This document shows, piece after piece, positions 300 to 27,987 of a DNA stretch of 32,000 nt. Origin of the DNA: Coprobacillaceae bacterium (GTDB taxonomy: Bacteria; Bacillota_I; Bacilli_A; Erysipelotrichales; Coprobacillaceae); assembly GCA_963675915.1 (NCBI GenBank), contig OY780959.1, forward strand, positions 1,290,001-1,322,000. The letters run 5' to 3'. Under the pieces are notes generated by a model that did no database searches, had not been told where the DNA came from, and saw only the letters and a program-made list of their open reading frames with translations. How positions within the stretch are numbered: position 1 is the stretch's first letter; each line of letters opens with the position of its first letter. The position numbers were made by a program, and so were the translations under genes.

Positions 300-551
300 T
301 TGTTCCCATTCTCCCCTATGTATTTTTAAATAGTACAAATATTCGATATTTTTATTTAGTCTATATCAAAATATCAACTCTATAGTTGGATTTTATACGA
401 ATTATAGGCATTTTTCAATCATTATTTCGGCTTATTTTCATGGCCCTGTCAAATCAGAGGACTTAAGTTACAGATAATCTTCCAAATGGCAAATTCAAAA
501 GTTCAATTTTGGGCTCTAATCAGATTAGCTCGCAAAAAAAGAGCAACCAGG

Positions 552-1808
552 TTACTCTTTTGTCTTACTTTTGAGATCTTCAATCAGATAATCAAGGATA
601 TTTTCCTGATACCCCGCCAACTGAGTCGTTGCAATCACATTTTTTACTCCTTGAAGCCGAGGCTCTGTAATTGCATTCAACTTGGCCAACGATTGTGGAG
701 TGATCCTATTTTGGGATAATGATTTTTGATATAACTCTAGCGTATAACCCCAGGGAATGATATTGTGGTGCCGTGCCAGTAATCTAGCACAGATACCAAG
801 TCCTTCAGGATCAAAATCACCGGAATAATAGATGGTGGTTTCCGGCGAAAGCAAATCAAGCAGTTTCAAACCCGCTACCTTGAGTTGCCCTGAAGTGCAA
901 ACTAGTGCGATGTTACTTGGAATCTTGGCGGCAATCATTGAAAAGACCATCTGGTTTTCGACCACGAATACCGGCCCCTTGGCTTGGGCCTGATCGACAT
1001 CTGCAAGATTGGCCAGGGTGACCACACAGTGCTGGTTGAGCTGGTTGAATCCGGCTACCCCCGGATGAACCGTTCCCTTGCTATATAGATTAATGCCGCG
1101 AATAACGACGCTGCTGGAAATATCATCGGGAATGATTCCGATTTCATAATAGAGACTGAGAATCTCCTCACTGGAAAAAGGAGGCTTTTGCTTCATTTCA
1201 AAAGCCAAAAAATTAATTAATATTTTCCCGGCGAGATTGGCCCGGTCGAAATAATGAGGGTCACCGGTAACCAGCGCCCCGATCAAAGCCAGACGCATTT
1301 GGGTGGTCTCCAGTTGATTGATTGCCCGGTCGATGCTTGTAATAATCAGTTCACACCGCTTTTTGTCTTCCCGGTATTGTCCTACCATCAATTTATAACC
1401 AAATGATTTGGTTTCAATCATTTGACTACACCAGTTGGCGACCCGAGGGTTTTTAAGCTGACTTTGCAGGCGTCCGAAAAATTGCTCCCGGGCAGCCTTT
1501 TGATTGATTCTAGTTTGCTTGTTGGTGACCAGTTTCGAGTCGAAATAGCCCTCCAATAAATCTTGGAGACTGACCCCGGAGAAGATGGTATCCTTGAGAC
1601 TTTCTTCAAAATGGGCCATCTTGAACCGAATCTCATCGGTGAAGTTGCGGTGGAGAAAGGATCCTAGCACCTTGAGTTCACCAGGTGTTGGATCTTTGAG
1701 GACGATATACCCGGCAATGCGGCCGTATTTTTCCCATTGAATCTTCATTTTCATGAAGATCCGGTTGAATTCCTGGTTGTTTTTGAAATACTCAATAGAT
1801 TCTTTCAT
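552..1808 (-). CDS. jetD: Wadjet type II JetD-like subunit (TIGR02679/DUF2399-like, Toprim nuclease subunit, MksG analogue)
   Basis: 418-aa ORF and last gene of the operon. Its ATG overlaps the jetC stop (ATGA at 1805-1808). The C-terminal half carries Toprim-type acidic motifs VFVVENQ and YYSGDFDPEG (E ... DxD). Size and position fit TIGR02679. Confidence 0.8.
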   Translation of the reverse strand: MKESIEYFKNNQEFNRIFMKMKIQWEKYGRIAGYIVLKDPTPGELKVLGSFLHRNFTDEIRFKMAHFEESLKDTIFSGVSLQDLLEGYFDSKLVTNKQTRINQKAAREQFFGRLQSQLKNPRVANWCSQMIETKSFGYKLMVGQYREDKKRCELIITSIDRAINQLETTQMRLALIGALVTGDPHYFDRANLAGKILINFLAFEMKQKPPFSSEEILSLYYEIGIIPDDISSSVVIRGINLYSKGTVHPGVAGFNQLNQHCVVTLANLADVDQAQAKGPVFVVENQMVFSMIAAKIPSNIALVCTSGQLKVAGLKLLDLLSPETTIYYSGDFDPEGLGICARLLARHHNIIPWGYTLELYQKSLSQNRITPQSLAKLNAITEPRLQGVKNVIATTQLAGYQENILDYLIEDLKSKTKE

Positions 1809-4800
1809 GACCCGACAAAGACCTTCTCTTTCCCGTCCCAGCGGTAATTGAGGATTGAGACGATGTCAGAATCAAGCGGTCGGTATAATTCGGTGATTGC
1901 CAAGGATTTAACCGAGCCATGGGTCCCCCAGAGATTCTGGGAATTCATGATGCAATCAAGATCAAGAGTTTCAACCAGTTCGAACATTGAACCGATATTC
2001 TCGCTGTCGACTCCGGCAAAAGCCTCGTCCATTGCAATGATTCTTGGATGGGTCTTCTTAGCGGCTTTAAGATACTGCGCGTTGACAGCCGTGAAAAGTG
2101 GCACATACATCGCCATCGCCTTTTCCCCTCCCGAAAGGACGTTGAAGCGTGAATTGGTCAGTTCCCGCTTGTTCTCGTTCTTGCGATATGAATATAAGCG
2201 GAATTCGTACCATTCCCGGTAGTCAAGGGCCCGTTTAACCAGATCGGCATAACTGTAATCATAGTCCTCGTTGTCTAGGTATTCCTGTTTGGCCAAATTG
2301 ATTCGGTTCCTGAAATATCGTGAAAGTTGCTGTTGGCGCTCGTAAGAAATAATGCTTTGGTCGACTTCAAGCAGTTTGACGACTTCCCCGGTTCCCAGGT
2401 CATCATCACCAAGTGCCGGTTTTGGTTTCCAGTCGAGTGAAAATGAAATCGCCGAGGTTGTCTGTAGATTCGCCATCAGTTTTGACATATCATTGACCCA
2501 CTGTTTGGAATCATTGATTTTCTCGATCAGTTTGCGAGCCAAGGTATCACTGAAGAATTTTTCAAACAGTTCCTTGTCCTTTTCTTCAATCAGATATTGG
2601 GTCTCATTGATATTGTGTTTGATCTGGTCGCGAAAATCGTAGAAATACATCCGCTGAGTCGAATACATCAAGGTGATCCGCCGTCTTTTTTCCAAAATAC
2701 CGACCGGATTTTCTTCAAAAACATCGACGATATTGATTCCATAGCTAGTCAGCGAAGACGAGTTCGAATTGCATGAATTATGAAGATCCTGGAGCATGTC
2801 GGCAGCACTTTTGGCTTTTTCAGACTCGTTGATTAAGTCACTTGCCTCTTTGAGTCGGGCTTTTTGGTCACTAGCCTTGAGATTGACAAGTTCTAATTGT
2901 TCCTCAAGTTCATAGATTCGCTTGGCCTCGTTATACAAGTGCTTTTTCTCGCTGATTGCGGCCTGGTCGCGCTCTAAATCATTTTTGATTACAGCCATCT
3001 CTAAATCCAAACCGTTGATTTTGGTTTGGGCCGCTTTGATCTTAGTAGCGTTATCAGCTACAAGTTGATCAATCTTATTGGCTCTTAGAGCCGCGTTTTT
3101 AAAATCAGGCTGGTTAAGATAGGCAGCGATAGTTTCAATCTGGGTTTTCAACTGGGCTATTTCCTCTTCAATCTTGTCAAGGGCGACTTGATAGTTGTCA
3201 GCCTGATTGTTGAAGACAGCGATGATGTCTTCAAGTGCCTGAAGATTGTTTTTGGCAGTAATCAAGTTGTTGACTTTCATATTCATCTCACGGAGATACC
3301 CACCATAAAATTCGAGATGGTCATAAACTTCCTCGAAGATATCCACCCGGTGATTGTAAGGCAAACCTCTAGTCAAGGTCATAATCCGGTTTTTCAGGGC
3401 CACCTTACTATCGAACTTTTTATTAAGTTGTAACTGGGTTTTGTTTTGCAAATCAGCCGTTGCCTGATATGCTCCTTCCAATTTGCGAATTTCGTTAGTA
3501 ATTTGATCTAGCCGGTTGAAATCAAGAAGACCTTGGTACTCCCGCTCAAGAACACTCTGCTCATTGGCGCATTCAGATAGCTTCTGGTCATATCCAGCCA
3601 TGATCCTGTCAAGTTCGCGCAACTGTTCCTGGAGTTTGGCAATCTGGTTTTCGCGGTTGCGTTTCCGTTGATTCACCCCCACATAGATTGACTCTTGAGC
3701 ATCGCTGACATAACCTTCAACCAAACCGTAACGATAATACCCATCCAAATCAAAACGAATTGCCTCGCTGTCATTATTGATTGAAGCGATAAAGCTAGTG
3801 ATTTCATCCTGGAAATCATGGTTATCGTCGCATTTAAAATAAGCTCTTTGCGCCGGTGTTGCTGAAATATCCACCAAGGCGCCCTCATTGTTTTTAAGCA
3901 ATTGTTTGGCCCGGTCATAGTCGGTACGAGCAACCACCAAAGCATCGATCAGATTGGTGGCTATCAGTTGACTTTCAAGAACACTCTTTTGCCTGTCGCT
4001 AAGATCGTCCTGGAATTCCAAGGCTTGATAGAGCGGCAAATAGGCGATTTTGGCCTTGGTTAATAACTGGCGCGATTTTTCTATCAGTTCACTATGGGGA
4101 TAACTGATTTCCTCGCGATTGATCAGATCGACAAGTTGTTGATTCAGTTCATTCTTATCTTTGGCAATAACCGCCTTTTCATGGGTAATCCGGTTGATTT
4201 TTAGATCAATCCCCCTTTCCTGATCGCGTTTCAATTCGCTTAATCGAGCGTCAATTTTCTTGAAATGGTCATAGCCCTGATAGTTTCTAATTATTTGTTC
4301 AAGTTCCTTGATTGCTTCATCAATCCTAAATACTTGATAATTGTCTCGGGCGAGATAATACTGGGTGACAATCCGATCCTTCTCATCTTCTAGCGTAGCG
4401 ACTTGATCATCTAGCTTTATCGTCAACTCTTCAAGTTGATAATTTAATTTGGCCAATTCCTCCTGGAGTTGGGAAATCTCATTTTCCAGTTCAGAAGCTT
4501 CAACCAAGGCCTTGTATGCCTGGAAGACCTGTTCACTTAATAATTTGAGATTGGCTTCAATCCGTTCCTGGCACAAGATGAAGTCGGCATAGTCACTGAG
4601 GTTTTCAATCTCGAGATGGCCTTCGAACTGAATAATCCGGTTGGAATCTTTCAAGTTGCTCACAATCTTGGAAATCTGATAGTCGATCTGGTCGGATTCA
4701 TCGCGGACCTGGTTTTTTTCAAGATACTTGCGATCCCGGTTTTCAACCGTACTTTGGTAGCTATCTAGTTGCTCCTGGCGGTATGTCTCCCGCTGTTCGA

Positions 4801-5836
4801 GTCGCGCTTTGGCACTTTGATAATTTTCTAGATATCTTTCAATATCCTCAATTGGCAGATTCTCCCGTTCAATTTTCAAGAGCTCATTTTCCTTGTCATA
4901 GCCTTCAATGTCAGTTTCGAGAGCAGTTTTAGTGGCCTCTTTGGTTTTCAATCCTGATTCCAGGGTGCTGATTTTGTTATCGAGAACCTGGTATTCACCC
5001 TGGTATTTCAAAAAGTTGCCGGCTTTTTTGGCGATGAAGTAGCGGTTGTAGTTGCTATATACCCGAGCAATATTGTCTAACGCTCGCTTGGTTTCCTTGA
5101 GTCCTTCTAGTTTGGTCTGCATGTCTTCGATTCTTTCCATCGACTCGACCATCGGAAGAATATCTTCATCCGCAAGGACTTGCAAGGTCTCATTGTAGAT
5201 CTCGTAGATCTTGGTCGGTTTGAATTCCTTCGACAATTTGGGAGCTCTGATTTTGATTAATAGATTGACAAACTGTTCATATTGTTCGATCTTTTTGAAA
5301 CCAAAGAGCCTCTTGTTGACTTCATGTTTGTATTCGTTTGAAGATTCGGTAAAGAAGTTTTCACTCCCGAGATGATCCCGGATTTCTTTTTTGTCGAGAA
5401 TCTGATATTGAGCACCATTTTTCTTCTTGAAATTGAAGTCGATTCCGACTCTGCGGTTGTCAGCGATGATCATTCCCCAAAAATCGATTCCCTTATTCTT
5501 GCGGGCCCGCTGACCGATTGCAATTGTCAAATATTGGCTGGAATCCTGCTTTTTGAATTCAAGCCAGATATAGCCGGTCGAATCGTCTTTGGCCCCATCA
5601 AGGAGGAAGTAATATTCCATTTTCCGGTCCCTTGAACCAAACGGGTCCAAGCGATGGGGTGCTCGGTTTCCATCAAGGATGAAGGGAATGAACGACTGGG
5701 TCGTAATCGATTTGCCCGATCCATTTTGGCCTCTTATCAATAATTTTCCATTAGCGAAATTGAATTCCTGATCATCGAAATACCAGAAATTAACCAATCC
5801 CATCCGATGCATTTGCCATCTATTTTTCATCTTCAT
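1805..5836 (-). CDS. jetC: Wadjet type II JetC-like SMC/Rad50-family ABC ATPase (TIGR02680-like, MksB analogue)
   Basis: 1343-aa ORF. Walker A GQNGSGKS is at aa 36-43 (nt 5708-5731, checked on the sequence). The central region is hundreds of residues of charged, heptad-like sequence rich in E/K/L/Q (coiled-coil arms). The C-terminus has the LSGGEKAMAMYVPLF signature motif and RIIAMDEAFAGVD Walker B/D-loop. Confidence 0.88.
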   Translation of the reverse strand: MKMKNRWQMHRMGLVNFWYFDDQEFNFANGKLLIRGQNGSGKSITTQSFIPFILDGNRAPHRLDPFGSRDRKMEYYFLLDGAKDDSTGYIWLEFKKQDSSQYLTIAIGQRARKNKGIDFWGMIIADNRRVGIDFNFKKKNGAQYQILDKKEIRDHLGSENFFTESSNEYKHEVNKRLFGFKKIEQYEQFVNLLIKIRAPKLSKEFKPTKIYEIYNETLQVLADEDILPMVESMERIEDMQTKLEGLKETKRALDNIARVYSNYNRYFIAKKAGNFLKYQGEYQVLDNKISTLESGLKTKEATKTALETDIEGYDKENELLKIERENLPIEDIERYLENYQSAKARLEQRETYRQEQLDSYQSTVENRDRKYLEKNQVRDESDQIDYQISKIVSNLKDSNRIIQFEGHLEIENLSDYADFILCQERIEANLKLLSEQVFQAYKALVEASELENEISQLQEELAKLNYQLEELTIKLDDQVATLEDEKDRIVTQYYLARDNYQVFRIDEAIKELEQIIRNYQGYDHFKKIDARLSELKRDQERGIDLKINRITHEKAVIAKDKNELNQQLVDLINREEISYPHSELIEKSRQLLTKAKIAYLPLYQALEFQDDLSDRQKSVLESQLIATNLIDALVVARTDYDRAKQLLKNNEGALVDISATPAQRAYFKCDDNHDFQDEITSFIASINNDSEAIRFDLDGYYRYGLVEGYVSDAQESIYVGVNQRKRNRENQIAKLQEQLRELDRIMAGYDQKLSECANEQSVLEREYQGLLDFNRLDQITNEIRKLEGAYQATADLQNKTQLQLNKKFDSKVALKNRIMTLTRGLPYNHRVDIFEEVYDHLEFYGGYLREMNMKVNNLITAKNNLQALEDIIAVFNNQADNYQVALDKIEEEIAQLKTQIETIAAYLNQPDFKNAALRANKIDQLVADNATKIKAAQTKINGLDLEMAVIKNDLERDQAAISEKKHLYNEAKRIYELEEQLELVNLKASDQKARLKEASDLINESEKAKSAADMLQDLHNSCNSNSSSLTSYGINIVDVFEENPVGILEKRRRITLMYSTQRMYFYDFRDQIKHNINETQYLIEEKDKELFEKFFSDTLARKLIEKINDSKQWVNDMSKLMANLQTTSAISFSLDWKPKPALGDDDLGTGEVVKLLEVDQSIISYERQQQLSRYFRNRINLAKQEYLDNEDYDYSYADLVKRALDYREWYEFRLYSYRKNENKRELTNSRFNVLSGGEKAMAMYVPLFTAVNAQYLKAAKKTHPRIIAMDEAFAGVDSENIGSMFELVETLDLDCIMNSQNLWGTHGSVKSLAITELYRPLDSDIVSILNYRWDGKEKVFVGS

Positions 5837-6956
5837 ACTCCTTATAATCTTTTGGGAAAACCCCGCCGGTTAGCGCCATCGCTGCTTGAATCAAGACCAG
5901 CTCTCTTTCAATTTTCACCATACCCCACTCAATCAGGTATTCAAGCACTTTATCAATGACAATCTTAAGATCCATATTCCGGTATTCGCTAGAAAGACCC
6001 GAATAATGCTGCTGATAAGCGGCCGTGATAATTGCCTTGAAATTATCACGATCAGTGATGATCACATCATTGTTTTGCAGCGTTAGCTCACCTTGATGAT
6101 ACAAATCGACAACCTTCTTGGATACAAACAAAACCAGTGCTGAGATGGTCTTGCCCCCAGGATGAGTCGTCCCGAATCTGTCCTCATGATTGACCATCAA
6201 ATAGGCTGAATTCTTGTATACCTGAAGCTGACCGCCAAGATATTTGTCAAGGTTGCGTTGGATGTTGAAACGCTGATTCTTGATATATTTGGCATCGGCA
6301 TCATGAATATTATCCCAGGTGACCCCGGGACTGGTGACAAGTTCCTTGTAGACCCGATTGACCCGATTGCGGCCGATGTCATATTCCAGTCCTTCATCGA
6401 GGCGTTCGAAATCTTCAAGTGAGTTATAATCTTTGGCCTCACCATTGAGATTGACCGTGAAGTACTTCGACAACCCAGTATTTTCGTACAAGACCTCGTT
6501 GGTGATATCCTGCTTGATGGCATCGAGTGAACCATCAGTGATTTTGTACAACCGTTTGGCAACACAATATTCCATCACTCGCACCAGCGATCTTCGCTTG
6601 GCGTATTTGGTCCAATCCAATTCGCCATACGGTTCAAGAATCATTGTGATTGCCTCGACATATTGGGAAAAGAGGAATTGCTCATGGGTCTGCTTGTCTT
6701 CAAGATAGATCAGACTCGCCAACAAAATCAAATAATCGTCGACTTCAGTGAATTCATGGATCCCCATGAAACTTTTGGCCTTGGCCGGAGTTTTTTCAAT
6801 CTTGATAATCTCATCATTGGCAATCAACCGCCAGCCGATCTGATCAGTGATGAATTTTTGGTAATTCTTCAATTCCCGTTTCATCGCATTGAATTTCTTG
6901 ACATCGTCGCTTTTGACAACCCAGAAATTCTCCAATAGTTCTTTTGTAATCATCAT
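5820..6956 (-). CDS. jetB: Wadjet type II JetB-like subunit (TIGR02678/DUF2398-like, MksE analogue)
   Basis: The ORF track starts at 7010. An internal ATG at 6956-6954 shares one nucleotide with the jetA TGA stop (TGATG), giving MMITKELLENFWV... and 378 aa, so I prefer this coupled start. The 3' end overlaps the jetC start by 17 nt. There is no catalytic motif; the call rests on size and its position between the A and C subunits. Confidence 0.7.
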   Translation of the reverse strand: MMITKELLENFWVVKSDDVKKFNAMKRELKNYQKFITDQIGWRLIANDEIIKIEKTPAKAKSFMGIHEFTEVDDYLILLASLIYLEDKQTHEQFLFSQYVEAITMILEPYGELDWTKYAKRRSLVRVMEYCVAKRLYKITDGSLDAIKQDITNEVLYENTGLSKYFTVNLNGEAKDYNSLEDFERLDEGLEYDIGRNRVNRVYKELVTSPGVTWDNIHDADAKYIKNQRFNIQRNLDKYLGGQLQVYKNSAYLMVNHEDRFGTTHPGGKTISALVLFVSKKVVDLYHQGELTLQNNDVIITDRDNFKAIITAAYQQHYSGLSSEYRNMDLKIVIDKVLEYLIEWGMVKIERELVLIQAAMALTGGVFPKDYKEYEDEK

Positions 6957-8422
6957 CAATCCTCGAACTCCAAAATCATCCACGGCATTGTCAAATCGCC
7001 ATCGGTGCATCTAAGAGTTATCCTTTCATCTTTTCCGGTCAGTTTGAATCTTTTACCGTATTCGGTAACCCCGACCTTGTCACTAGTGCCATTGGCGCTA
7101 GCCACCCATGACAGCAGCAACATCCGAATATCCGGAGTTAGTACTTCATCGATTTCCTTGAAATCAATCCGCTTGCTTTTAATGAATTTGGCGGCAATCT
7201 TGAATTGATGGTCGATTTCTTCCTGGCGCTTTAGCTTTTGGATTTCCTTTTCCATCTGCCGATCGGCAATCAAACAGCGAGTCTTTTTGATCCGGTATTT
7301 CCGGGTTGTCGGTTTGATTTCGATTATCTGTTGTTGCTGTTCAAATGAAGAAAGACTGATACTCTCACTTTGTTTATCCTCGTAGGCCATAAGATGGTAA
7401 AGATTGTGGATTCCAAAAATATGGGCACCATAACAATGAGCCTGATTGATTTCACTAATTTCACTGAATAATTTGAGATAATGGCGGTAGTCATCCTTTT
7501 TGGAGATGATTCCCTCATGATAATCGACAATCATTCCGGCATTCTGGATGATTTTATGAATAATATGATTGGTCCGATCCATAATCACATCGACCTCGCG
7601 TTGACGGTTAGCGGCGGAAACAAACCATTTCTTCAACTCCTGAAACTTTCCTTGGACATCGTTAGCGATATCCTGTTCTAAGCTACTGGCAATTTCGTTT
7701 AGGGAAGAGGGATTATTCTTTTGGAGCGTGACGATTCGTTCAAGCAGGGCATCCACATAACTATCATCAAGTTTGGAAAAAACAATTTCAAATTCGATTG
7801 CATACTTTTGGAGTTGACCGACGAAGTCACGCAGCATTTTCAAGAAATACTCCTTGTACTTTAAAAACTCTAGCGACTGCATCAGTTTCTGGGTCCGGTC
7901 CGAATAGAAATCTCGGAGGTAGTCACTATAATCCATATTAAGGGCATGGAAATCTCCACAAATAAAATCCCACCACTCGAGGATGTGGGTTTCATCATGG
8001 TCAAGAACGGTATCAATTCGAGCGAATTCCTGGTAGAGCCGTTTGAGATACCCGATTGTAGAGGCATTTCTTTTGACCACCAAGTTTTCAAGTTTGACTG
8101 TCATCCGCTCGATTTCGACTGCCACATCGGTAATCGAATAGCGGAATTTTCGGGCCTTGAACTCCTCGATGGTATTGACCTGGCGGACATCCTGGACCGC
8201 AATCAAATTACCCCACTTGACCAGAGCATCCAAGGCATTTTTGATCCCATCCTCGTCAAAGTCGAGATCATCATAGTCGTCGAGCTTTTCAATTACGTCA
8301 TCCATATACAAATGATAATTGTACTTATTTGACTCCAGGTAGAAAACCCGCATAATCAGCCGATATATTTGATAGTTTTGCGCCGTCAGATACGCCGTCT
8401 CATTTATCATTTCAATTGCCAT
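6956..8422 (-). CDS. jetA: Wadjet type II JetA-like subunit (TIGR02677/DUF2397-like, MksF/kleisin analogue)
   Basis: 488-aa ORF and first gene of the operon. GGAGGT SD (8433-8428) lies 5 nt before ATG 8422. The N-terminus AYLTAQNYQIYRLIMRVFY resembles the conserved start of DUF2397 proteins as I recall it. The call rests mainly on operon architecture. Confidence 0.7.
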   Translation of the reverse strand: MAIEMINETAYLTAQNYQIYRLIMRVFYLESNKYNYHLYMDDVIEKLDDYDDLDFDEDGIKNALDALVKWGNLIAVQDVRQVNTIEEFKARKFRYSITDVAVEIERMTVKLENLVVKRNASTIGYLKRLYQEFARIDTVLDHDETHILEWWDFICGDFHALNMDYSDYLRDFYSDRTQKLMQSLEFLKYKEYFLKMLRDFVGQLQKYAIEFEIVFSKLDDSYVDALLERIVTLQKNNPSSLNEIASSLEQDIANDVQGKFQELKKWFVSAANRQREVDVIMDRTNHIIHKIIQNAGMIVDYHEGIISKKDDYRHYLKLFSEISEINQAHCYGAHIFGIHNLYHLMAYEDKQSESISLSSFEQQQQIIEIKPTTRKYRIKKTRCLIADRQMEKEIQKLKRQEEIDHQFKIAAKFIKSKRIDFKEIDEVLTPDIRMLLLSWVASANGTSDKVGVTEYGKRFKLTGKDERITLRCTDGDLTMPWMILEFED

Positions 8423-8448
8423 AAATTACCTCCAGATACTTAATATAA

Positions 8449-8477
8449 ATTTTATCATAGATTGTGGTCGATTTCAT
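8449..8477 (-). promoter_or_regulatory. Candidate sigma-A promoter of the jetABCD operon (ATGAAA-17 bp-TGaTAAAAT)
   Basis: On the minus strand: -35 ATGAAA (8477-8472), a 17-nt spacer, and an extended -10 TGATAAAAT (8457-8449). It lies about 27 nt upstream of the jetA ATG. Found by hexamer matching only. Confidence 0.4.
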
Positions 8478-8525: not shown

Positions 8526-9212
8526 TTACATGAACAGACATAATAACAGCGGCATGAACATCGCCGGCAGGTAATTCATCAATTTAAGTTTGGTTATCCC
8601 CAGCAGATTCAAACCGGTTCCAATCAAAATGATCGATCCGGCACAGGTCATTTCGTTGATGGTTCCCATCGCCAACAGCGGTGCAGCCAAAAACGCCATC
8701 AGAGTGATTCCGCCCTGGAAAACAGCCACGAAGATCACTGAAAACAGGACCCCGATTCCCAGAGTCGAAGCAAAGACAATCGAGGAAGTGAAATCCAAAG
8801 TCGACTTGGTCAGCAGCATCGACTGGTCATTGTAGACTCCCGCATTCAGTGCTCCCACCAGGGTCATCGAACCGATGCAAAACAGCAGACTGGCCGTGAT
8901 GAAGCCCTGCGCCAATGAGTGCCGCCCTTGGGCTTTGGAAAACCGATTTTCCACCCTGCTTAGCAGATTGGCAAAATGCCGGTCAATATCGATAGCTTCG
9001 CCGATCAAAACACCGATAACCAGGGAAAGGACCATGATCATCGGATTTTCCCCTTTGAAAGCCCCCTGGACTCCGATGAAAATCGTGCACAGTCCCAAGG
9101 CTTTCATCAATTGGTTGGTAATCCGCTTGGGGATGACCTTGTTGAAAGTCAGACCGATGGTGCTTCCCACCGCCACCGCAATGCAATTTATAATTGTCCC
9201 GATAAACATCAT
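8526..9212 (-). CDS. DUF554 family integral membrane protein (YqgA/YdfK-like)
   Basis: 228 aa and highly hydrophobic. The start MMFIGTIINCIAVAVGSTIGL...IPKR and its size are typical of DUF554. GGGGGA SD lies upstream of the ATG. Confidence 0.8.
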   Translation of the reverse strand: MMFIGTIINCIAVAVGSTIGLTFNKVIPKRITNQLMKALGLCTIFIGVQGAFKGENPMIMVLSLVIGVLIGEAIDIDRHFANLLSRVENRFSKAQGRHSLAQGFITASLLFCIGSMTLVGALNAGVYNDQSMLLTKSTLDFTSSIVFASTLGIGVLFSVIFVAVFQGGITLMAFLAAPLLAMGTINEMTCAGSIILIGTGLNLLGITKLKLMNYLPAMFMPLLLCLFM

Positions 9213-12364: not shown

Positions 12365-14146
12365 TCAGGACTCCTGATTTGTCGCTTTGGCCATCAGCTC
12401 GGCCATTTCCTGGAGTGACTCTTCAATCAGCAAAGCCAATCGTTCCAGCTGATCCTTGATTTTGGTTCGCGCCACCATATTGAATGTGAACGACTCATTA
12501 TCTTTAAGATATCTAATCGCAAATCCGGCCTCGACCACTGGACCATAACCAACCAGATCGACCCCCTGGGCCGCCGTGGTGCTGGTACAGATTGTACTGT
12601 GGGTCAGTTTTTGATATCCCGCATCCTGGAAAAACTCCGGTATCCCGGTAATCCCCAGTTCTTCCCCATGGATGTTGGCCATTTTCAAAAGGGCGAAAAG
12701 GTGCGAGTCAATTCCCTGGCCTTCACGACATTGAGCCAGTCGGGAAACCTGTTTTCCTGCGGCTGTGCGCAGCAAATCAATTCGTTTGGCATCATCAACT
12801 GATTCATCCATCATGCTTTTGACAAATGCCAGCGACTCATTCGAGATACAATGGGATACTTCGATCCGGCCAAAGAGATACTTTCTGGCCATTACCGCTT
12901 CATACTGGCTGTGACAGTAGCCAAACAGCTTGTACTGGGCCAGCTGCATCGCCAACTGGACGAAGGCATCGGGACTAACCTTGAAAGTCTTGACCAGTCC
13001 ATTACCAAACTTTTCAAAGCGAACAACCTTGATTGAAAAATCCGCTGCGTATTGATCCAGTTCGCAATCACGCTTTTTGATTACTTCCCTGATTGAATCA
13101 GGCAAGACAAAATCATTACGCTCGCGTCGAGCCAAATCGCCATCCAGGATATCGCCTAGATATGACTGGATATTATTATATATATATTTGTTCATATTGG
13201 TGATTACCGATCCGTCAAATCCGGTATGTTCGAGATTAAGTCCGATTTTGTTGTTATTAGTCACGATAAACTGGAGCGCCTTGTCGAACCAGCGGTTGCG
13301 GCCGTTGGCATGCAAGAAATGCGCCAGGCATTCTTCCTTGGTCGTTGGAGCGAGGTTATCAAGACAAAGGACAAAGATAGCGCTGTCGATGGCATGAAGC
13401 AATTTGCGGTTGGACTCACTATAATTTTCCATTTCACCTCTGGCATCGGCCCACTGGTCCCGATCCATGGTCGTCAACAATCCGACTTTTTCATCAGATT
13501 CCAGTTCGGTCTCCTCAAGAATCTGGCGCAATGTCGCTTCAATCCGGTTAAACGGTTTGATTTCTCCGTCCGGGGTCAGGACATCAACCGAGAAGATATG
13601 ACCGCGGTTAAGTACGGCGATATGCCGGGAATTCTGCGTTTTGAAGAATTCATCTTTGCCCGGTTTGGGAATCCGGCTGGTCATAAACAGATTGGTATAT
13701 TGTTTCATGCACAACGGCTCTCCCCGCTGCGTTTCGACTGGCAGGGTTTCACTGTCAATCAACTCCTTAAAATTAAGAACCGTCAGTGTCAAGGCAGTCG
13801 CCGCAGCTGATTGGCTGGCTGCCACTATTTCCGGCATATCCTCAAGCAGGTAGAAAACATTGCTGTTGATGGGGAGTGGTACCCTTGAATCCAGATAGAT
13901 ATCATACCAGAGCGGTTCGGTCCAGTTGACCAGATTCTCGGTTTTAACCCAGTCAATCAAAGCTTGTTGCAGTTTGGGACCCCATCCCTCTGCGCTCAAA
14001 AAGCGCTCGGTAATTTTTTTGGTTTTTTCATATTCATCCGCGCTAAGTAGCGGCTCGACCCATTCCAGAAAACTGGTTCCGGTATCTTCAAGATCCGGGA
14101 TTGGTCTGATAATAAGTTCATTTTGGTATTTAAAAGTTTTTTCCAT
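12365..14146 (-). CDS. Choline/carnitine O-acyltransferase family protein (PF00755-like)
   Basis: 593 aa. The catalytic-His motif LNLEHTGFDGS matches EH(S/T)xxDG. The C-terminal TSTTAAQGVDLVGYGPVVEAGFAIRY matches the STS...GFGPVVPDGYGIGY block of carnitine/choline acyltransferases. AAGGAGA SD precedes the ATG. Confidence 0.85.
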   Translation of the reverse strand: MEKTFKYQNELIIRPIPDLEDTGTSFLEWVEPLLSADEYEKTKKITERFLSAEGWGPKLQQALIDWVKTENLVNWTEPLWYDIYLDSRVPLPINSNVFYLLEDMPEIVAASQSAAATALTLTVLNFKELIDSETLPVETQRGEPLCMKQYTNLFMTSRIPKPGKDEFFKTQNSRHIAVLNRGHIFSVDVLTPDGEIKPFNRIEATLRQILEETELESDEKVGLLTTMDRDQWADARGEMENYSESNRKLLHAIDSAIFVLCLDNLAPTTKEECLAHFLHANGRNRWFDKALQFIVTNNNKIGLNLEHTGFDGSVITNMNKYIYNNIQSYLGDILDGDLARRERNDFVLPDSIREVIKKRDCELDQYAADFSIKVVRFEKFGNGLVKTFKVSPDAFVQLAMQLAQYKLFGYCHSQYEAVMARKYLFGRIEVSHCISNESLAFVKSMMDESVDDAKRIDLLRTAAGKQVSRLAQCREGQGIDSHLFALLKMANIHGEELGITGIPEFFQDAGYQKLTHSTICTSTTAAQGVDLVGYGPVVEAGFAIRYLKDNESFTFNMVARTKIKDQLERLALLIEESLQEMAELMAKATNQES

Positions 14147-15166: not shown

Positions 15167-16078
15167 TCAAAGACGATTATAGTCGCTTTGACTGACCGCT
15201 TCACACCATTCCAGTTTTCCGTTTTCTCCAGGAATTTCCACCGCAATGTGAGAGAACCAGCTGTCTTTTTTCGCTCCATGCCAGTGTTTGACTTCGGCTG
15301 GAATATAGACAACCGATCCGGCTTCCAGACTGATTGGCTCTTCGCCTTCGGCCTGGTACCATCCTTCACCGACAGTACAAACCAGAATTTGACCACCATT
15401 CTTGGTCGCGTGGTGGATATGCCAGTTATTCGAACAACCAGGCTCGAAATTGACATTGGCACAGAATAAAGGTACTTTCCCCGGTCTGGTCAACATTCTC
15501 AAGTATGAGCGGCCACTGAAATATTTACCCAGCGGTAGGTTGTAAATTCCGGTTCCAAACATATTGGCCGCCTTGAATTGTTTTTTATCGGTATATTTGC
15601 TTTCATTCCCCATTGGGATGAAGCTTTTTTTGTTTGGCTTGGCTTTAAGGGGGTTGTAGTGTTCATCCTCAACCGGTTCCAGCCATTCAGTTGAAGTTTC
15701 AACTCCCAAGGCTTCAACAGCAATGTGAGAAAACCAGCTGTCTTTTTTGGCACCGTGCCAATGTTTTACTCCCGCTGGAATGTAAATGAATGATCCCTCA
15801 GTCAGGCTGACTGGCTTTTTGCCTGCTTCTTGGTACCATCCTTCCCCAGCGGTACAAATCAGGATCTGTCCCCCTCCGCTTTTGGCATGATGGATATGCC
15901 AGTTGTTGCGACAGCCCGGTTCAAAAGTCACATTGGCCATAAAAACCGGTGACTCTTCCGGATTGGTCAGGGGTTTCAGGAATGAATCACCAGTAAAATA
16001 TTGGCCAAACATTTCATTGGGAAACCCAAAACCGAATTTGTTTACATGTTCGAATTGAATCTTGTTTAAGTATCTCAT
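15167..16078 (-). CDS. Tandem (bi)cupin domain protein
   Basis: 303 aa with two near-identical cupin units. One is FEPGCRNNWHIHHAKSGGGQILICTAGEGWYQ...IPAGVKHWHGAKKDSWFSHIAVE. The other is FEPGCSNNWHIHHATKNGGQILVCTVGEGWYQ...IPAEVKHWHGAKKDSWFSHIAVE. Both have the cupin metal-site pattern H.H...G ... H. Confidence 0.88.
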   Translation of the reverse strand: MRYLNKIQFEHVNKFGFGFPNEMFGQYFTGDSFLKPLTNPEESPVFMANVTFEPGCRNNWHIHHAKSGGGQILICTAGEGWYQEAGKKPVSLTEGSFIYIPAGVKHWHGAKKDSWFSHIAVEALGVETSTEWLEPVEDEHYNPLKAKPNKKSFIPMGNESKYTDKKQFKAANMFGTGIYNLPLGKYFSGRSYLRMLTRPGKVPLFCANVNFEPGCSNNWHIHHATKNGGQILVCTVGEGWYQAEGEEPISLEAGSVVYIPAEVKHWHGAKKDSWFSHIAVEIPGENGKLEWCEAVSQSDYNRL

Positions 16079-16152
16079 ATTTCGTCCTCACTTTTCATTG
16101 ATATATTCAAAGATTTTTGGCCTAAAGCCAGTTATTTCATATTTATGGCTTG

Positions 16153-16183
16153 ATTATAACCCTAGAGTCAACTCGAGAGTCAA
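16153..16183 (-). promoter_or_regulatory. MerR-type promoter/operator upstream of the bicupin gene (TTGACT-19 bp-TATAAT with dyad in the spacer)
   Basis: On the minus strand: -35 TTGACT (16183-16178), a 19-bp spacer, and -10 TATAAT (16158-16153). The region CCCTTGACTCTCGAGTTGACTCTAGGG contains an imperfect dyad (CCCT.GA.TC ... GA.TC.AGGG) and a TTGACTCT direct repeat. An over-long spacer with a dyad is the classic MerR-activated promoter geometry. Confidence 0.6.
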
Positions 16184-16264
16184 GGGTTTTATGAAAAAAT
16201 CATTATAATCGGAATGATCATTTCTATCACGGTTTGCTTTAATTGCATCAGCGTACTTTTTAAT

Positions 16265-16300
16265 GAAAAAAAACTGATTTTAAATTTTCTAAAATCAGTT
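16265..16300 (-). terminator. Rho-independent terminator downstream of the 155-aa membrane protein gene
   Basis: Perfect 10-bp stem ACTGATTTTA / TAAAATCAGT (16273-16282 / 16290-16299) with a 7-nt loop, followed on the minus strand by a T7-8 run. Confidence 0.8.
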
Positions 16301-16423
16301 TGTCTCAATTCAATTTTTTGATGGCTATATTATCTTGCCACCAGTCTTGTTTAGCTAAAAAGCTTGAAAATTCAGGTAAGGGAATAAAAATTAAAATCAT
16401 TTTCGACTCTAGCAGTTGTCTTA

Positions 16424-16891
16424 TCAGATAAAAAGCATCAACATCATCATGATTCCGCCAAATATCACAATCACACTCATTGCCCCGGCCCAGTAAATAC
16501 CGGGCAGTTTTTTGGCTCTAATATATAGCGGAGTGCCAATAATAATTGCTGCCAGGATAATATAAAATGGGATTCCAAAATTGAGGGACATCGTCACAAC
16601 CATTATCAGCATGATGTTGGCCATCATGAAAACGGCCAGGAATATTGCCTTGGCTCCATCGGATAATTTCGATTTGAATATCTTAAGTCCCGCCAACCAA
16701 ACAACCAGAAAGCTCACAGCCATCACAGCGAAAAAGAAACCATAGTTTCGATAGATAGTACCTTCATCATCAAATCCCAGAATCCCCCAATAAAGTGCCA
16801 CGCCGGCAATAAAGACAAAGAAAATTGCAAAACAGCTTAAGATAAAAACCGCGCTACGCGAAAGGCCCTTTTTTTCAGATTTTACTTTCAT
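16424..16891 (-). CDS. Hypothetical integral membrane protein (4-5 predicted TM helices)
   Basis: 155 aa and strongly hydrophobic, with a short basic N-terminus (MKVKSEKKGLSR). GGAGG SD lies upstream and the gene has its own terminator. I do not recognise the family. Confidence 0.6.
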   Translation of the reverse strand: MKVKSEKKGLSRSAVFILSCFAIFFVFIAGVALYWGILGFDDEGTIYRNYGFFFAVMAVSFLVVWLAGLKIFKSKLSDGAKAIFLAVFMMANIMLIMVVTMSLNFGIPFYIILAAIIIGTPLYIRAKKLPGIYWAGAMSVIVIFGGIMMMLMLFI

Positions 16892-17122
16892 TGTGTTTAC
16901 CTCCTTCCATAACGATGATGGCGTAAAATAGCTTCGAATGCTACCAATAAATGTAGATAAACATCGATTGTCAAGTCCGGTTAATCAAGATGATGCGATC
17001 TTAACCGCCTCTTTACAAGCGTTGTTCTGTCTTATCGTCAAATCATAAATAAAATTGTTCTTACCTAGCCTGTTTAAGGATATTTAAACCATTGCCTATT
17101 TGTCAGAGCGCTCCTCTAAATT

Positions 17123-18836: not shown

Positions 18837-19736
18837 CTATGACCGATTGGTTTTTCCAATCGTCATCGCTTCAACTAAAAGTTTTACTGCGGGATTATCG
18901 ACTTTTTTCAAAGTGGCGGCCACAATCTCAAAGCAATGATTCGAATTTTCAATCGGGATGATCTTGAGCCGGTCAGCCAGATTGCCCAGATCATAGTTGT
19001 CCGGAACAAACCCGATCAAACCTTCAGTCATAATGTAGAAAAATTCAGTCTCGACATCATCGGCGGTTCGGGCGATATCAGGCGTGTAGCCATCAATTTT
19101 AGCCCGGGCTTCCATCAAATCATAGGATGAACCGATAATATCCGGATCAAGCATGATCAGCGGATGGGCATACAGTTGCTCTAGGGTGATTGTTTGATGA
19201 TTGGCCAGGGGATGATTATTGGCTACCACCGCGCAGTAACAGCCCTGATAAAGGGGATAGGTGACAATCTCATCATTACCTGCAAAGACCGAATCGAATG
19301 AGATTGCAATATCGTGAATACCCTTGACCAGATAGTCCGAGATGTCGCTCATTTGAACCTTATGGAGCTCAATCCGAACATTTTCGTGTTCCTTGGAGAA
19401 ATTCGGGATTGATCTTAGCAGACTTGTTACATCCATGATTCCGCCATACTCGAGAAAAAGAACCTGTTCATTGTCATCGACAAAACTGTGCATCTTTTCT
19501 TTCATATGCGCATATTGTTGCCAAATCGCCAAGGCTTCTTTATGGAAAGTCCAGCCGGCCCGGGTCGGTTCGATTGGCGTCTTCTTGCGATCAATCAGAC
19601 TGATCTCGAATTCTTTTTCCAGTGAAGCTATCTGTTGGGAAATGGTAGTTTGGGACACATAGTTCCGCTTGGCGGTTTCGGTGAAATTGCGACATTCCAC
19701 CAAATCGAGAAAATATTTAACTTTTTCAATATTCAT
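18837..19736 (-). CDS. LysR family transcriptional regulator
   Basis: The ORF track starts at 19754, but ATG 19736 has an AGGGGA SD 6 nt upstream and yields the canonical LysR N-terminus MNIEKVKYFLDLVECRNFTETAKRNYVSQTTISQQIASLEKEF. The C-terminus is a LysR substrate-binding domain. Confidence 0.9.
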   Translation of the reverse strand: MNIEKVKYFLDLVECRNFTETAKRNYVSQTTISQQIASLEKEFEISLIDRKKTPIEPTRAGWTFHKEALAIWQQYAHMKEKMHSFVDDNEQVLFLEYGGIMDVTSLLRSIPNFSKEHENVRIELHKVQMSDISDYLVKGIHDIAISFDSVFAGNDEIVTYPLYQGCYCAVVANNHPLANHQTITLEQLYAHPLIMLDPDIIGSSYDLMEARAKIDGYTPDIARTADDVETEFFYIMTEGLIGFVPDNYDLGNLADRLKIIPIENSNHCFEIVAATLKKVDNPAVKLLVEAMTIGKTNRS

Positions 19737-19808
19737 AATAAATCCCCTTTTCATTGCTTATAAATTATAACAATAAAACCACAAATCGCAAAGCCAGGTT
19801 CAAAACAA

Positions 19809-19847
19809 GAAAAAAAGCCCGGTTTCCAGTGAGGGGAAACCGGGCTC
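19809..19847 (-). terminator. Strong rho-independent terminator downstream of the enoate-reductase-like gene
   Basis: 12-bp GC-rich stem AGCCCGGTTTCC / GGAAACCGGGCT (19816-19827 / 19835-19846), followed on the minus strand by T7. Confidence 0.9.
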
Positions 19848-19905
19848 GATAAGATAAGAAATTAAATATATAAGATAAGAAATTAATTAATGGGTAAAGA
19901 TATTA

Positions 19906-21855: not shown

Positions 21856-21880
21856 GTTTATCTCCTTTGTTTTTTTGAAT

Positions 21881-23107: not shown

Positions 23108-23143
23108 TTTTTCTCCTCCAAAGTTTGTTAAAAATATAACAAA

Positions 23144-23173
23144 GTTATACCATATAAAAACCATACATGTCAA
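23144..23173 (-). promoter_or_regulatory. Candidate promoter of the MFS/enoate-reductase operon (TTGACA-18 bp-TGgTATAAC)
   Basis: On the minus strand: -35 TTGACA (23173-23168), an 18-nt spacer, and -10 TATAAC (23149-23144) preceded by TGG. The -35 lies inside the PadR-type palindrome. Confidence 0.55.
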
Positions 23174-23184
23174 TATATACATGT
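23165..23184. promoter_or_regulatory. PadR-type operator, ACATGT-N8-ACATGT (contains ATGT-N8-ACAT)
   Basis: ACATGTCAATATATACATGT is read directly at 23165-23184. ATGT-N8-ACAT is the inverted-repeat core reported for PadR-family operators. It overlaps the -35 of the minus-strand promoter and abuts the -35 of the padR-like promoter. Confidence 0.65.
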
Positions 23185-23212
23185 TGATTTGTGAAAATTT
23201 TTACTTTATTAT
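23184..23212 (+). promoter_or_regulatory. Candidate promoter of the PadR-family gene (TTGATT-17 bp-TATTAT)
   Basis: -35 TTGATT (23184-23189), a 17-nt spacer, and -10 TATTAT (23207-23212). AAGGAGA SD lies at about 23233, ahead of ATG 23246. Confidence 0.55.
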
Positions 23213-23245
23213 GTAGGTAGATAAAGAAAACTAAGGAGAAATTCC

Positions 23246-27442: not shown

Positions 27443-27987
27443 ATAAGGCAACAATTTTGCCGCGTATCCGATTCCATCGAAATTCTAAAACATTCTCCTA
27501 TTCAACAGGCTGTACGCCAAATTCAAAAATAACATTTACTATCTATCCTCTACCATATCAAATTTCAACACCTGCAGGAACGACTCAAACCTTTATTATC
27601 AGCGCCCTTATGACTGAGCCCCCATTTGTTGATCGACGCCATCATCCCCCAATCAGGCTGTCGCACTCGATATTAATATATTATCATTCCAAACTGATTC
27701 AAACATTTACGAATGTTAGGAATAATAGCCCTTATGTTACATAATGAATTTTATTTATCATAAGTTACAAATTTTGGGGATGGTCTATTTTTTCTGACCT
27801 TGATCCAGCCTGGTAATCTTGTCATCAAAACCGCGGAATCACTAAATCCAATTAACCCCAAAAAAGGTAGTATTGGCTCCATTTTAGGCTAATCTATGTT
27901 ATACTTTATCCTATAACCTGCCGATGATTCACCACCATCATCTGGATGCATCAGTGAAGATAATTGAAAAATGAGGGAGTAAAGATA

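What the first reader, a model, noticed from the sequence alone, without database searches (positions are those of the whole stretch)
552..8477. Compact four-gene SMC-ATPase/Toprim operon matching type II Wadjet (JetABCD; TIGR02677-02680 architecture)
Four co-oriented ORFs (488, 378, 1343 and 418 aa) are coupled by overlaps: TGATG at 6954-6958, a 17-nt overlap at 5820-5836 and ATGA at 1805-1808. The 1343-aa protein has Walker A GQNGSGKS, very long coiled-coil sequence, an LSGGE signature and IIAMDEAF Walker B, which marks an SMC/Rad50-like ATPase. The 418-aa protein has VVENQ and SGDFDPEG, the Toprim E...DxD. Gene order and sizes match the conserved TIGR02677/02678/02680/02679 cluster (DUF2397/2398/2399). 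That cluster was classified as Wadjet type II, an MksBEFG-like complex that recognises and cleaves small circular foreign DNA. The same cluster type has also been described as the pbeABCD partner of dnd phosphorothioation genes, but no dnd genes are present here, so this copy appears stand-alone. The operon lies between a lactate-dehydrogenase-like gene and ordinary membrane and sugar genes. There is no integrase, tRNA or flanking repeat, so how it was acquired is not evident. This is the most likely defence system in the window, although the family itself is already described.
Basis: partly seen in the sequence, partly recalled or inferred. Interest (0 to 1): 0.7.

Follow-up and report, generated by a model that had tools for sequence, protein, structure and literature searches.

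The report
Type II Wadjet anti-plasmid operon
This is an intact four-gene type II Wadjet (JetABCD) system, a known bacterial defence that finds small circular foreign DNA such as plasmids and cuts it; it is a correct but ordinary annotation.

Summary
Four tightly coupled genes lie on the minus strand: jetA 6956-8422, jetB 5820-6956, jetC 1805-5836 and jetD 552-1808.

All four proteins match the type II Wadjet families end to end:
- Pfam: DUF2397, DUF2398, SbcC_Walker_B plus AAA_29, and DUF3323 plus DUF2399.
- NCBIfam: TIGR02677/78/80/79.
- PADLOC: the best models are JetA2, JetB2, JetC2 and JetD2.
- Solved structures: JetA, JetB and JetC align over essentially their full length to the cryo-EM chains of Neobacillus vireti type II Wadjet (9QE0/9QE1).

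JetD gives a confident model (pLDDT 93.5). Its only significant structural matches are Top6A, Spo11, MksG and JetD. Its Toprim residues E284, D331 and D333 are invariant in 32 homologues.

The operon stands alone. I found no dnd genes, integrase, tRNA, flanking repeats or compositional anomaly.

Corrections:
- The claimed identity with pbeABCD is wrong, because that system has a different architecture.
- JetC probably starts at the second ATG (5830).
- JetB and JetD fall just under NCBI's strict TIGRFAM cut-offs.

The closest operons found share only 44-57% identity, so this is a divergent new member of a known, already reconstituted system. Interest is low.

The parts
8449..8477 (-). Candidate sigma-70 promoter of the operon (ATGAAA, 17 nt, TAAAAT, with TG before the -10). 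A GGAGG ribosome-binding site lies 6 nt before the jetA ATG.
   Evidence: Consensus scan and the sequence read. This is a consensus match only. Read-through from the co-directional DUF554 gene upstream is not excluded.
6956..8422 (-). jetA, 488 aa: the kleisin subunit (DUF2397 / TIGR02677).
   Evidence: PF09660 scores 340 bits over 9-480. TIGR02677 scores 239.8 against a cut-off of 165.85. PADLOC JetA2 scores 443.7 bits. The PDB match is 9qe0_E (N. vireti JetA), E 2e-58, over 4-487.
5820..6956 (-). jetB, 378 aa: the KITE subunit of the long type II form (DUF2398 / TIGR02678), homologous to the tandem four-winged-helix KITE of N. vireti.
   Evidence: PF09661 scores 242 bits. PADLOC JetB2 scores 364 bits. 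The PDB match is 9qe0_D (JetB, 389 aa), E 3e-47, covering 7-372. TIGR02678 scores 107.3, below its cut-off of 124.65. The start is the ATG in TGATG.
1805..5836 (-). jetC, 1343 aa (probably 1341 aa from the ATG at 5830): the SMC-like ABC ATPase. It has Walker A G36-S43 (K42), the signature LSGGE at 1234-1238, Walker B IIAMDE at 1266-1271, and a long coiled-coil and hinge region between the two head halves.
   Evidence: TIGR02680 scores 625.4 against a cut-off of 462.85, over 6-1338. PADLOC JetC2 scores 1180 bits, versus 67 bits for JetC1. PF13558 scores 85 bits. The PDB match is 9qe0_A (JetC), E 1e-150, over 4-765 and 1047-1341.
552..1808 (-). jetD, 418 aa: the nuclease, with an N-terminal DUF3323 (CAP-like arm) and a C-terminal DUF2399 Toprim domain. 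The catalytic residues are E284, D331 and D333.
   Evidence: PF11796 scores 135.9 bits and PF09664 scores 91.9 bits. PADLOC JetD2 scores 435 bits. TIGR02679 scores 192.9 against a cut-off of 196. E284, N285, D331 and D333 are invariant in 32 homologues. The AlphaFold2 model has pLDDT 93.5. The Foldseek top 10 are Top6A, MksG, P. aeruginosa JetD and Spo11.
531..561 (-). Probable intrinsic terminator: an 11-bp hairpin that includes the jetD stop codon, followed by seven U.
   Evidence: Sequence read. The RNA fold gives -11.4 kcal/mol. The energy z-score is only -1.28, so the call rests on the stem plus the U-run.

Best explanation
The region encodes a complete, apparently functional type II Wadjet system, jetA-jetB-jetC-jetD, transcribed as one unit on the minus strand.

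Proposed mechanism, inferred by homology to the reconstituted N. vireti type II and E. coli/P. aeruginosa type I systems:
1. Two JetC ATPases, one JetA kleisin and one tandem-KITE JetB form a motor unit. Two motor units dimerise through the JetA N-terminus.
2. The complex loads on DNA and extrudes loops, using ATP binding and hydrolysis at the JetC heads (Walker A K42, Walker B D1270/E1271).
3. On a small closed circle, up to a few tens of kb, extrusion runs to completion and stalls. This switches the complex to a cleavage state that recruits and activates a JetD dimer.
4. The JetD Toprim site (E284, D331, D333) with divalent metal cuts both strands without sequence preference. The metal is Mn2+ in the N. 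vireti enzyme.
5. Host exonucleases then degrade the linearised plasmid.
6. The chromosome and linear DNA escape because they cannot be fully extruded.

Shown here: gene organisation, family membership of all four subunits, intact catalytic motifs and the JetD fold. Inferred: complex assembly, loop extrusion, size and shape sensing, metal preference and the plasmid-restriction phenotype.
For: - Four intact, overlapping, co-directional genes.
- Full-length hits far above the Pfam gathering scores for DUF2397, DUF2398, SbcC_Walker_B, DUF3323 and DUF2399.
- TIGR02677 and TIGR02680 score above their curated cut-offs. TIGR02678 and TIGR02679 are the only NCBIfam hits for JetB and JetD.
- The best PADLOC models are the subtype 2 models of each subunit, with type I models far weaker.
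- JetA, JetB and JetC each hit only the N. vireti type II Wadjet chains in the PDB, with E 2e-58, 3e-47 and 1e-150.
- The JetD model has pLDDT 93.5 and matches Top6A (1d3y), MksG (8b7f), JetD (7til) and Spo11 (8urq) at E 1e-7 to 2e-4, with nothing else significant.
- The Toprim residues E284, D331 and D333 are invariant across 32 homologues of 34-48% identity.
- The nearest relatives (L020, L021) carry the same four genes in the same order between unrelated neighbours, so the four genes form a self-contained cassette.
- Homologues in PLSDB occur on only 6 plasmids, all 149 kb or larger. This is consistent with small replicons being incompatible with the system.
- The mechanism comes from bioRxiv 10.1101/2025.03.10.642339. 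Native-host effects of Wadjet come from PMC12287153.
Against: - Nothing here shows expression or activity.
- The promoter and terminator are consensus-level calls only.
- JetB and JetD fall slightly below NCBI's equivalog cut-offs: 107.3 against 124.65, and 192.9 against 196.
- The proteins are only 44-57% identical to the closest operons found, so properties such as the size limit and metal preference may differ from N. vireti.
- JetD has no detectable sequence match to any solved structure, so its link to JetD-I, MksG and Top6A rests on Pfam profiles and a predicted fold.
- The JetC hinge and coiled-coil geometry were not modelled.
Confidence: 0.9

Rival explanations
1. The operon is a chromosome-organising condensin of the MksBEF/MukBEF type rather than a defence system.
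For: JetABC is architecturally an SMC-kleisin-KITE complex. The type II resting state resembles MukBEF, and the authors discuss domestication of Wadjet into MukBEF/MksBEF. The operon sits among ordinary metabolic genes with no other defence genes nearby.
Against: A JetD nuclease gene with an intact, invariant Toprim triad is translationally coupled to jetC. Housekeeping MksBEF and MukBEF lack this subunit. All the best profile hits are Wadjet subtype 2 models.
Confidence: 0.03
2. The operon is a silent or decaying relic that no longer works.
For: No expression data exist. The promoter is weak by consensus, at 9 of 12. JetB and JetD score just under the strict equivalog cut-offs.
Against: All four reading frames are intact and full length relative to the profiles and to the solved homologues. 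The ATPase and nuclease motifs are present in JetC and JetD, and the JetD Toprim residues are invariant in its homologues. Translational coupling is preserved.
Confidence: 0.05
3. The operon is a PbeABCD-like restriction partner of DNA phosphorothioation, here orphaned from its dnd genes.
Against: PbeABCD consists of a helicase-type PbeA, a 66-aa PbeB, a CxC-hook ABC ATPase PbeC and a 152-aa DndE-like PbeD. None of the four proteins here has a helicase, HKD or DndE match. No dnd-type genes occur in the 32-kb window or beside the nearest homologous operons.
Confidence: 0.01
4. The system mainly targets phages or other circularising mobile elements rather than plasmids.
For: The mechanism senses DNA shape and size, not origin. 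Any small circular intermediate could therefore be a substrate, which is an inference.
Against: Characterised Wadjet systems, including type II from N. vireti, are reported as plasmid-restricting. The native-host evidence is a rise of about five orders of magnitude in transconjugation frequency when jetABCD is deleted in C. cellulovorans.
Confidence: 0.05

Closest known systems
Type II Wadjet of Neobacillus vireti LMG 21834 (nvJET-II; PDB 9QE0/9QE1; bioRxiv 10.1101/2025.03.10.642339)
   Same: It has the same gene order and the same four families. JetA, JetB and JetC align over essentially their whole length (E 2e-58, 3e-47, 1e-150). JetB is long (378 against 388-389 aa) and JetC is long (1343 against 1371 aa). 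JetD combines DUF3323 with a DUF2399 Toprim domain.
   Different: The sequences are clearly diverged. The central part of the JetC coiled coil (about 766-1046) is not aligned by phmmer. The host is a different lineage, since the neighbouring DUF554 gene is closest to Erysipelotrichaceae at 66%. Activity, Mn2+ dependence and the size limit are untested here.
Unnamed four-gene operons in ENA assembly ERZ21869602 (loci L020, L021), the closest relatives found
   Same: They share the jetA-B-C-D order and similar sizes (489/495, 369, 1336 and 426/427 aa). They stand alone, without dnd or other defence genes.
   Different: Identity is only 55-57% for JetA, 53-54% for JetB, 45-46% for JetC and 44-47% for JetD. 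The flanking genes are unrelated (Rce1-like and GyrI-like), and these operons lack the jetB/jetC overlap.
Type I Wadjet / MksBEFG (E. coli GF4-3, P. aeruginosa PA14, C. glutamicum)
   Same: It shares the SMC + kleisin + KITE + Toprim nuclease logic. The JetD model matches MksG (8b7f) and P. aeruginosa JetD (7til) structurally. The extrusion-cleavage principle is reported to be shared.
   Different: The Pfam families differ for JetA, JetB and JetD. KITE is a single short protein acting as a homodimer rather than a tandem fusion, and JetC is shorter. The PADLOC type I models score only 13-67 bits here. No sequence-level PDB hit links JetD to the type I structures.
PbeABCD (partner of DndCDEA phosphorothioation)
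   Same: It is a four-gene defence cassette that contains a long ABC-type ATPase.
   Different: The other three components are different proteins: an SF2 helicase/HKD nuclease, a 66-aa protein and a 152-aa DndE-like protein. Its ATPase has a CxC zinc hook instead of an SMC hinge. It is not the same cluster type.

Membership tests
Wadjet type II (JetABCD-II) | Four co-directional genes in the order jetA-jetB-jetC-jetD forming one operon | tested here: met
   ORF map and junctions: a 1-nt overlap, a 17-nt (or 11-nt) overlap and a 4-nt overlap.
Wadjet type II (JetABCD-II) | JetA kleisin of family DUF2397 / TIGR02677 | tested here: met
   PF09660 scores 340 bits (cut-off 28.5). TIGR02677 scores 239.8 (cut-off 165.85). 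PADLOC JetA2 scores 443.7 bits. The PDB match is 9qe0_E, E 2e-58.
Wadjet type II (JetABCD-II) | Long JetB of family DUF2398 / TIGR02678, homologous to the tandem KITE (about 380-390 aa against about 240 aa in type I) | tested here: met
   PF09661 scores 242 bits. PADLOC JetB2 scores 364 bits. The PDB match 9qe0_D, E 3e-47, spans both lobes (7-372 against 20-383). Caveats: TIGR02678 scores 107.3, below its cut-off of 124.65. The two halves show no detectable similarity to each other, as also reported for nvJetB.
Wadjet type II (JetABCD-II) | JetC SMC-like ATPase of family TIGR02680 with Walker A, ABC signature and Walker B | tested here: met
   TIGR02680 scores 625.4 (cut-off 462.85). PADLOC JetC2 scores 1180 bits. 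The motifs lie at 36-43, 1234-1238 and 1266-1271. The PDB match is 9qe0_A, E 1e-150.
Wadjet type II (JetABCD-II) | JetD with DUF3323 plus a DUF2399 Toprim domain and a conserved E...DxD | tested here: met
   PF11796 scores 135.9 bits and PF09664 scores 91.9 bits. PADLOC JetD2 scores 435 bits. E284, D331 and D333 are invariant in 32 homologues. Caveat: TIGR02679 scores 192.9, narrowly below its cut-off of 196.
Wadjet type II (JetABCD-II) | JetD fold related to Top6A/Spo11 (CAP-like arm plus Toprim) | tested here: met
   The AlphaFold2 model has pLDDT 93.5. All 10 Foldseek PDB hits with E <= 2.3e-4 are Top6A, MksG, JetD or Spo11.
Wadjet type II (JetABCD-II) | Channel-less MukB-like hinge and long elbow-distal coiled coil in JetC | not tested
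   JetC (1343 aa) exceeds the 1200-aa limit of the structure predictor. The only evidence is sequence homology to nvJetC across the hinge region.
Wadjet type II (JetABCD-II) | ATP-dependent, JetABCD-dependent cleavage of circular but not linear DNA, and restriction of small plasmids in vivo | not testable with these tools
   This needs biochemistry or genetics.
Wadjet type I | Type I subunit families and a short single-KITE JetB | tested here: not met
   The PADLOC type I models are weak (JetC1 67.5 bits, JetD1 up to 23.4 bits) or absent (no JetA1 or JetB1 hits). JetB has 378 aa.
PbeABCD | PbeA helicase/HKD nuclease, 66-aa PbeB, CxC-hook ABC ATPase PbeC and 152-aa DndE-like PbeD, often next to dndCDEA | tested here: not met
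   No helicase, HKD or DndE domain occurs in any of the four proteins. The sizes do not match. No dnd genes occur in the window. I did not check whether PADLOC holds Pbe models.
MksBEF / MukBEF condensin | A three-subunit SMC complex without a nuclease gene | tested here: not met
   A fourth gene, jetD, is translationally coupled to jetC and has an intact Toprim site.

The most novel reading that the evidence does not exclude
This operon and its few close relatives (L020, L021, P0002-P0006) form a small, deeply branching type II sub-clade. It may differ functionally from the N. vireti prototype, for example in how JetD docks and is activated.

The DUF3323 domain of type II JetD carries invariant residues of unknown role: Y88, the motif P184-H185-x-x-D188, and H248. 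These could form a second metal- or DNA-binding site and might relate to the Mn2+ requirement reported for type II. This is a family-level speculation from alignment A1. It is not supported by any structure-based test here.
Probability: 0.1. Interest if true: 0.4.

Novelty: new member of a known kind. Interest (0 to 1): 0.15.

Why it matters
In practice, a strain carrying an active Wadjet system should be very hard to transform or conjugate with small plasmids. [quoted passage not shown] The annotation therefore predicts poor genetic tractability and the absence of small plasmids in this host, and it identifies a gene set to delete for strain engineering.

Scientifically, it adds one divergent sequence (44-57% identity to its nearest relatives) to the type II family. 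That is useful for conservation analysis of the tandem KITE and of the type II JetD arm. It does not open a new question.

Tried and rejected
- **Empty site in related genomes.** I scanned the GTDB species representatives with the neighbouring DUF554 protein. The 19 loci found are at most 66% identical (Thomasclavelia and Erysipelotrichaceae). None shares synteny or carries jet genes. The acquisition history could not be reconstructed, and the source genome itself is not among the representatives.
- **Exact look-up of JetD.** The sequence is in the protein collection as a singleton from a 2.63-Mb NCBI/ENA contig, without a name. The contig index returned nothing, so the organism was not identified.
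- **Solved structures for JetD.** Neither a single-sequence search nor a profile search of the PDB gave a meaningful hit. Only the fold comparison worked.
- **Internal duplication in JetB.** BLASTP of the two halves gave nothing.
- **Mobile-element signatures.** I found no tRNA, no Rfam family, only short chance-level repeats, and GC and GC3 within the range of neighbouring genes.
- **Near-identical DNA on plasmids.** None was found.
- **AFDB fold search.** The library was not available.
- **A second defence system in the window.** The 300-aa radical SAM protein matches viperin models only over the generic radical-SAM core (35 bits; NCBIfam 29.7 against a cut-off of 180). The HD-GYP protein matches Cas3 only through its HD domain. 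The MerR protein matches mad1 only through its HTH. All three were rejected.


Full report
**Observation**

The ORF map shows four large co-directional reading frames on the minus strand:
- 6956-8422, 488 aa
- 5820-7010, 396 aa as the maximal ORF
- 1805-5836, 1343 aa
- 552-1808, 418 aa

- The jetA stop TGA and an ATG share TGATG at 6958-6954. A GAGGA ribosome-binding site lies just upstream. This gives the 378-aa JetB.
- The jetB stop TAG at 5822-5820 lies 17 nt inside the jetC frame that starts at 5836.
- The jetC stop and jetD start share ATGA at 1808-1805.

I make two refinements.
- JetC more probably starts at the second ATG (5830, 1341 aa). AAGGAG lies 7 nt upstream of that codon but only 1 nt upstream of the first ATG. 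Alignments to the PADLOC profile and to the nearest homologous operons also begin at residue 3.
- The interval 8423-8477 is an untranslated leader. It has a GGAGG ribosome-binding site and a promoter-like site (ATGAAA, 17 nt, TAAAAT, preceded by TG).

Downstream of jetD, an 11-bp hairpin that includes the stop codon is followed by seven U (531-561). It is a plausible intrinsic terminator, although its folding energy alone is unremarkable.

The quoted motifs are all present:
- JetC: GQNGSGKS at 36-43, LSGGE at 1234-1238, IIAMDE at 1266-1271.
- JetD: VVENQ at 282-286, GDFDPEG at 330-336.

**What it is**

Pfam:
- JetA: DUF2397, 340 bits, end to end.
- JetB: DUF2398, 242 bits.
- JetC: SbcC_Walker_B, 85 bits. 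AAA_29 also matches at 23.2 bits, below its gathering score of 27.
- JetD: DUF3323, 136 bits, plus DUF2399, 92 bits, with a weaker JetD_C match.

NCBIfam returns TIGR02677, TIGR02678, TIGR02680 and TIGR02679 as the best or only families.
- JetA (239.8 against a cut-off of 165.85) and JetC (625.4 against 462.85) pass the curated equivalog cut-offs.
- JetB (107.3 against 124.65) and JetD (192.9 against 196) fall slightly short. This reflects sequence divergence rather than a different family.

PADLOC's best models are JetA2 (444 bits), JetB2 (364), JetC2 (1180) and JetD2 (435). Type I and type III models are weak or absent.

Against the PDB, JetA, JetB and JetC each hit exactly one set of chains, the cryo-EM structure of the Neobacillus vireti type II Wadjet complex (9QE0/9QE1).
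- The E-values are 2e-58, 3e-47 and 1e-150.
- The alignments cover 4-487 of JetA, 7-372 of JetB, and 4-765 plus 1047-1341 of JetC.
- The JetB alignment spans both lobes of the N. vireti tandem KITE. The two halves of JetB are not detectably similar to each other. The same was reported for nvJetB.

**JetD**

JetD has no solved relative detectable by sequence, either as a single sequence or as a 32-sequence profile. This is expected, because nvJetD was not in the cryo-EM preparations.

I built an alignment of 32 homologues at 34-48% identity.
- E284, N285, G330, D331, D333, P334 and G336 are invariant. These make up the Toprim E...DxD.
- Y400, Q401 and E402 are also invariant.

AlphaFold2 on this alignment gave a confident model, with mean pLDDT 93.5 and pTM 0.73. 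In a Foldseek search of the PDB, the ten hits with E between 1e-7 and 2e-4 are:
- topoisomerase VI subunit A (1d3y, 9o0g and others);
- the C. glutamicum MksG nuclease (8b7f);
- P. aeruginosa JetD (7til);
- Spo11 (8urq).

The next hit has E 0.57. JetD is therefore a Top6A-like Toprim nuclease, as in other Wadjet systems.

**Context**

- Downstream, on the same strand, lies the start of a D-isomer 2-hydroxyacid dehydrogenase gene (ATG at 299).
- Upstream lie a DUF554 membrane protein, a 6-phospho-beta-glucosidase, an RpiR regulator, and then assorted metabolic and regulatory genes.

The window shows no sign of a mobile element or other defence system.
- It has no tRNA and no Rfam family.
- It has no integrase or dnd-type gene.
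- No repeats flank the operon beyond short chance matches.
- GC (0.42-0.45) and GC3 (0.50-0.53) of the jet genes lie within the range of their neighbours.
- No other convincing defence system is present.

I could not reconstruct how the operon was acquired. A scan of species-representative genomes with the DUF554 protein found only relatives at 66% identity or less, mostly Erysipelotrichaceae and Clostridia, with no shared synteny.

The JetD sequence is present in public data as an unnamed singleton from a 2.63-Mb contig.

The closest operons found are two loci of one ENA assembly.
- They have the same four genes in the same order, between unrelated neighbours.
- They share only 55-57% (JetA), 53-54% (JetB), 45-46% (JetC) and 44-47% (JetD) identity.
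- The four genes therefore behave as a self-contained cassette.

The JetD family is large. It has 1615 clusters at 50% identity with E <= 1e-3, and 405 with E <= 1e-30.

In PLSDB, homologues occur on only six plasmids, all 149 kb or larger. This fits a system that is incompatible with small replicons.

**Mechanism**

The mechanism is inferred by homology. The N. vireti type II system has been reconstituted (bioRxiv 10.1101/2025.03.10.642339), with these properties:
- The JetA1B1C2 motor units dimerise through the JetA N-terminal winged helix.
- JetB is a tandem KITE.
- Cleavage needs JetABC, JetD, ATP and Mn2+.
- Cleavage acts on circular or artificially circularised DNA but not on linear DNA.
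- Cuts fall at random positions and leave 1-4-nt 5' overhangs.
- Restriction in vivo wanes for circles of about 50 kb and beyond.

I therefore propose the following for this operon. ATP-driven loop extrusion by JetABC runs to completion and stalls on small circles. This activates the JetD dimer, whose E284/D331/D333 metal site makes a double-strand break. Host exonucleases then degrade the linear product.

Shown here: gene organisation, family membership, motif integrity and the JetD fold. Everything functional is inferred.

This is not supported.

In the original description (PMC6459918):
- PbeA is a large helicase-type protein.
- PbeB has 66 aa.
- PbeC is an SMC-like ATPase.
- PbeD has 152 aa.

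A later reanalysis (PMC10853773) refined this:
- PbeA is an HKD nuclease fused to an SF2 helicase.
- PbeC is a CxC zinc-hook ABC ATPase, which had been misidentified as SMC-type.
- PbeD is a DndE cognate.

None of this matches the DUF2397 / DUF2398 / TIGR02680 / DUF2399 architecture found here.

**Verdict**

The finding is real and the main interpretation is correct. The system is a divergent but canonical member of type II Wadjet, a family that was defined in 2018 (my knowledge of Doron et al.; cited) and has since been solved and reconstituted. Standard defence-finder tools would annotate it automatically.

- Novelty: new member of a known kind.
- Interest: low (0.15).

The residual novelty is modest. 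The operon belongs to a small, deep sub-clade. The type II JetD N-terminal domain has invariant residues of unknown role (Y88, P184-H185-x-x-D188, H248).

Noticed in passing
window 12365-14146 (-): A 593-aa protein matches the choline/carnitine O-acyltransferase family end to end (PF00755, 545 bits). It has no NCBIfam model. This mainly eukaryotic enzyme family is unusual in a bacterial genome.
   Followed up: no
window 16424-16891 (-): A 155-aa ORF has no match in Pfam, NCBIfam or PADLOC. It lies in the lowest-GC stretch of the window (0.363 for 16001-17000).
   Followed up: partly
window 28974-31148 (-): Two adjacent radical SAM genes. One is a 419-aa HemN/HutW-like protein, with all NCBIfam hits below cut-off. 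The other is a 300-aa protein whose weak viperin (pVip) similarity covers only the radical-SAM core (35 bits; NCBIfam viperin 29.7 against a cut-off of 180). It is not a viperin, and its function is unclear.
   Followed up: partly
window 18837-23797: A 649-aa OYE plus pyridine-nucleotide-disulphide flavoenzyme resembles BaiCD, long bilirubin reductase and FadH (about 410-423 bits, below cut-offs of 750-825). It sits next to an MFS transporter and LysR and PadR regulators. This hints at a gut-anaerobe lifestyle.
   Followed up: no
window 25535-27454 (-): A 639-aa GAF-PAS-PAS-HD(-GYP type) signalling protein. Its weak Cas3 hits in PADLOC are due only to the HD domain.
   Followed up: partly
JetD, window 552-1808 (-); alignment A1: Outside the Toprim triad, type II JetD homologues have further invariant residues: Y88, P184, H185 and D188 (motif NPHYFDR), H248, and Y400-Q401-E402. 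Their role is unknown.
   Followed up: partly
PLSDB hits H1-H6: Type II JetD homologues occur on only 6 of 72,556 plasmids. All are 149 kb to 1.08 Mb (Bacillus, Priestia, Alicyclobacillus). This is consistent with the size limit of Wadjet restriction.
   Followed up: no
window 8526-9212 (-) and loci L001-L019: The source genome is not among the GTDB species representatives retrieved with the DUF554 neighbour. The best matches are 60-66% identical: Thomasclavelia saccharogumia, Clostridiales bacterium VE202-01 and Erysipelotrichaceae MAGs. No synteny is shared. The host is probably a poorly sampled Bacillota lineage, possibly Erysipelotrichales-like.
   Followed up: partly
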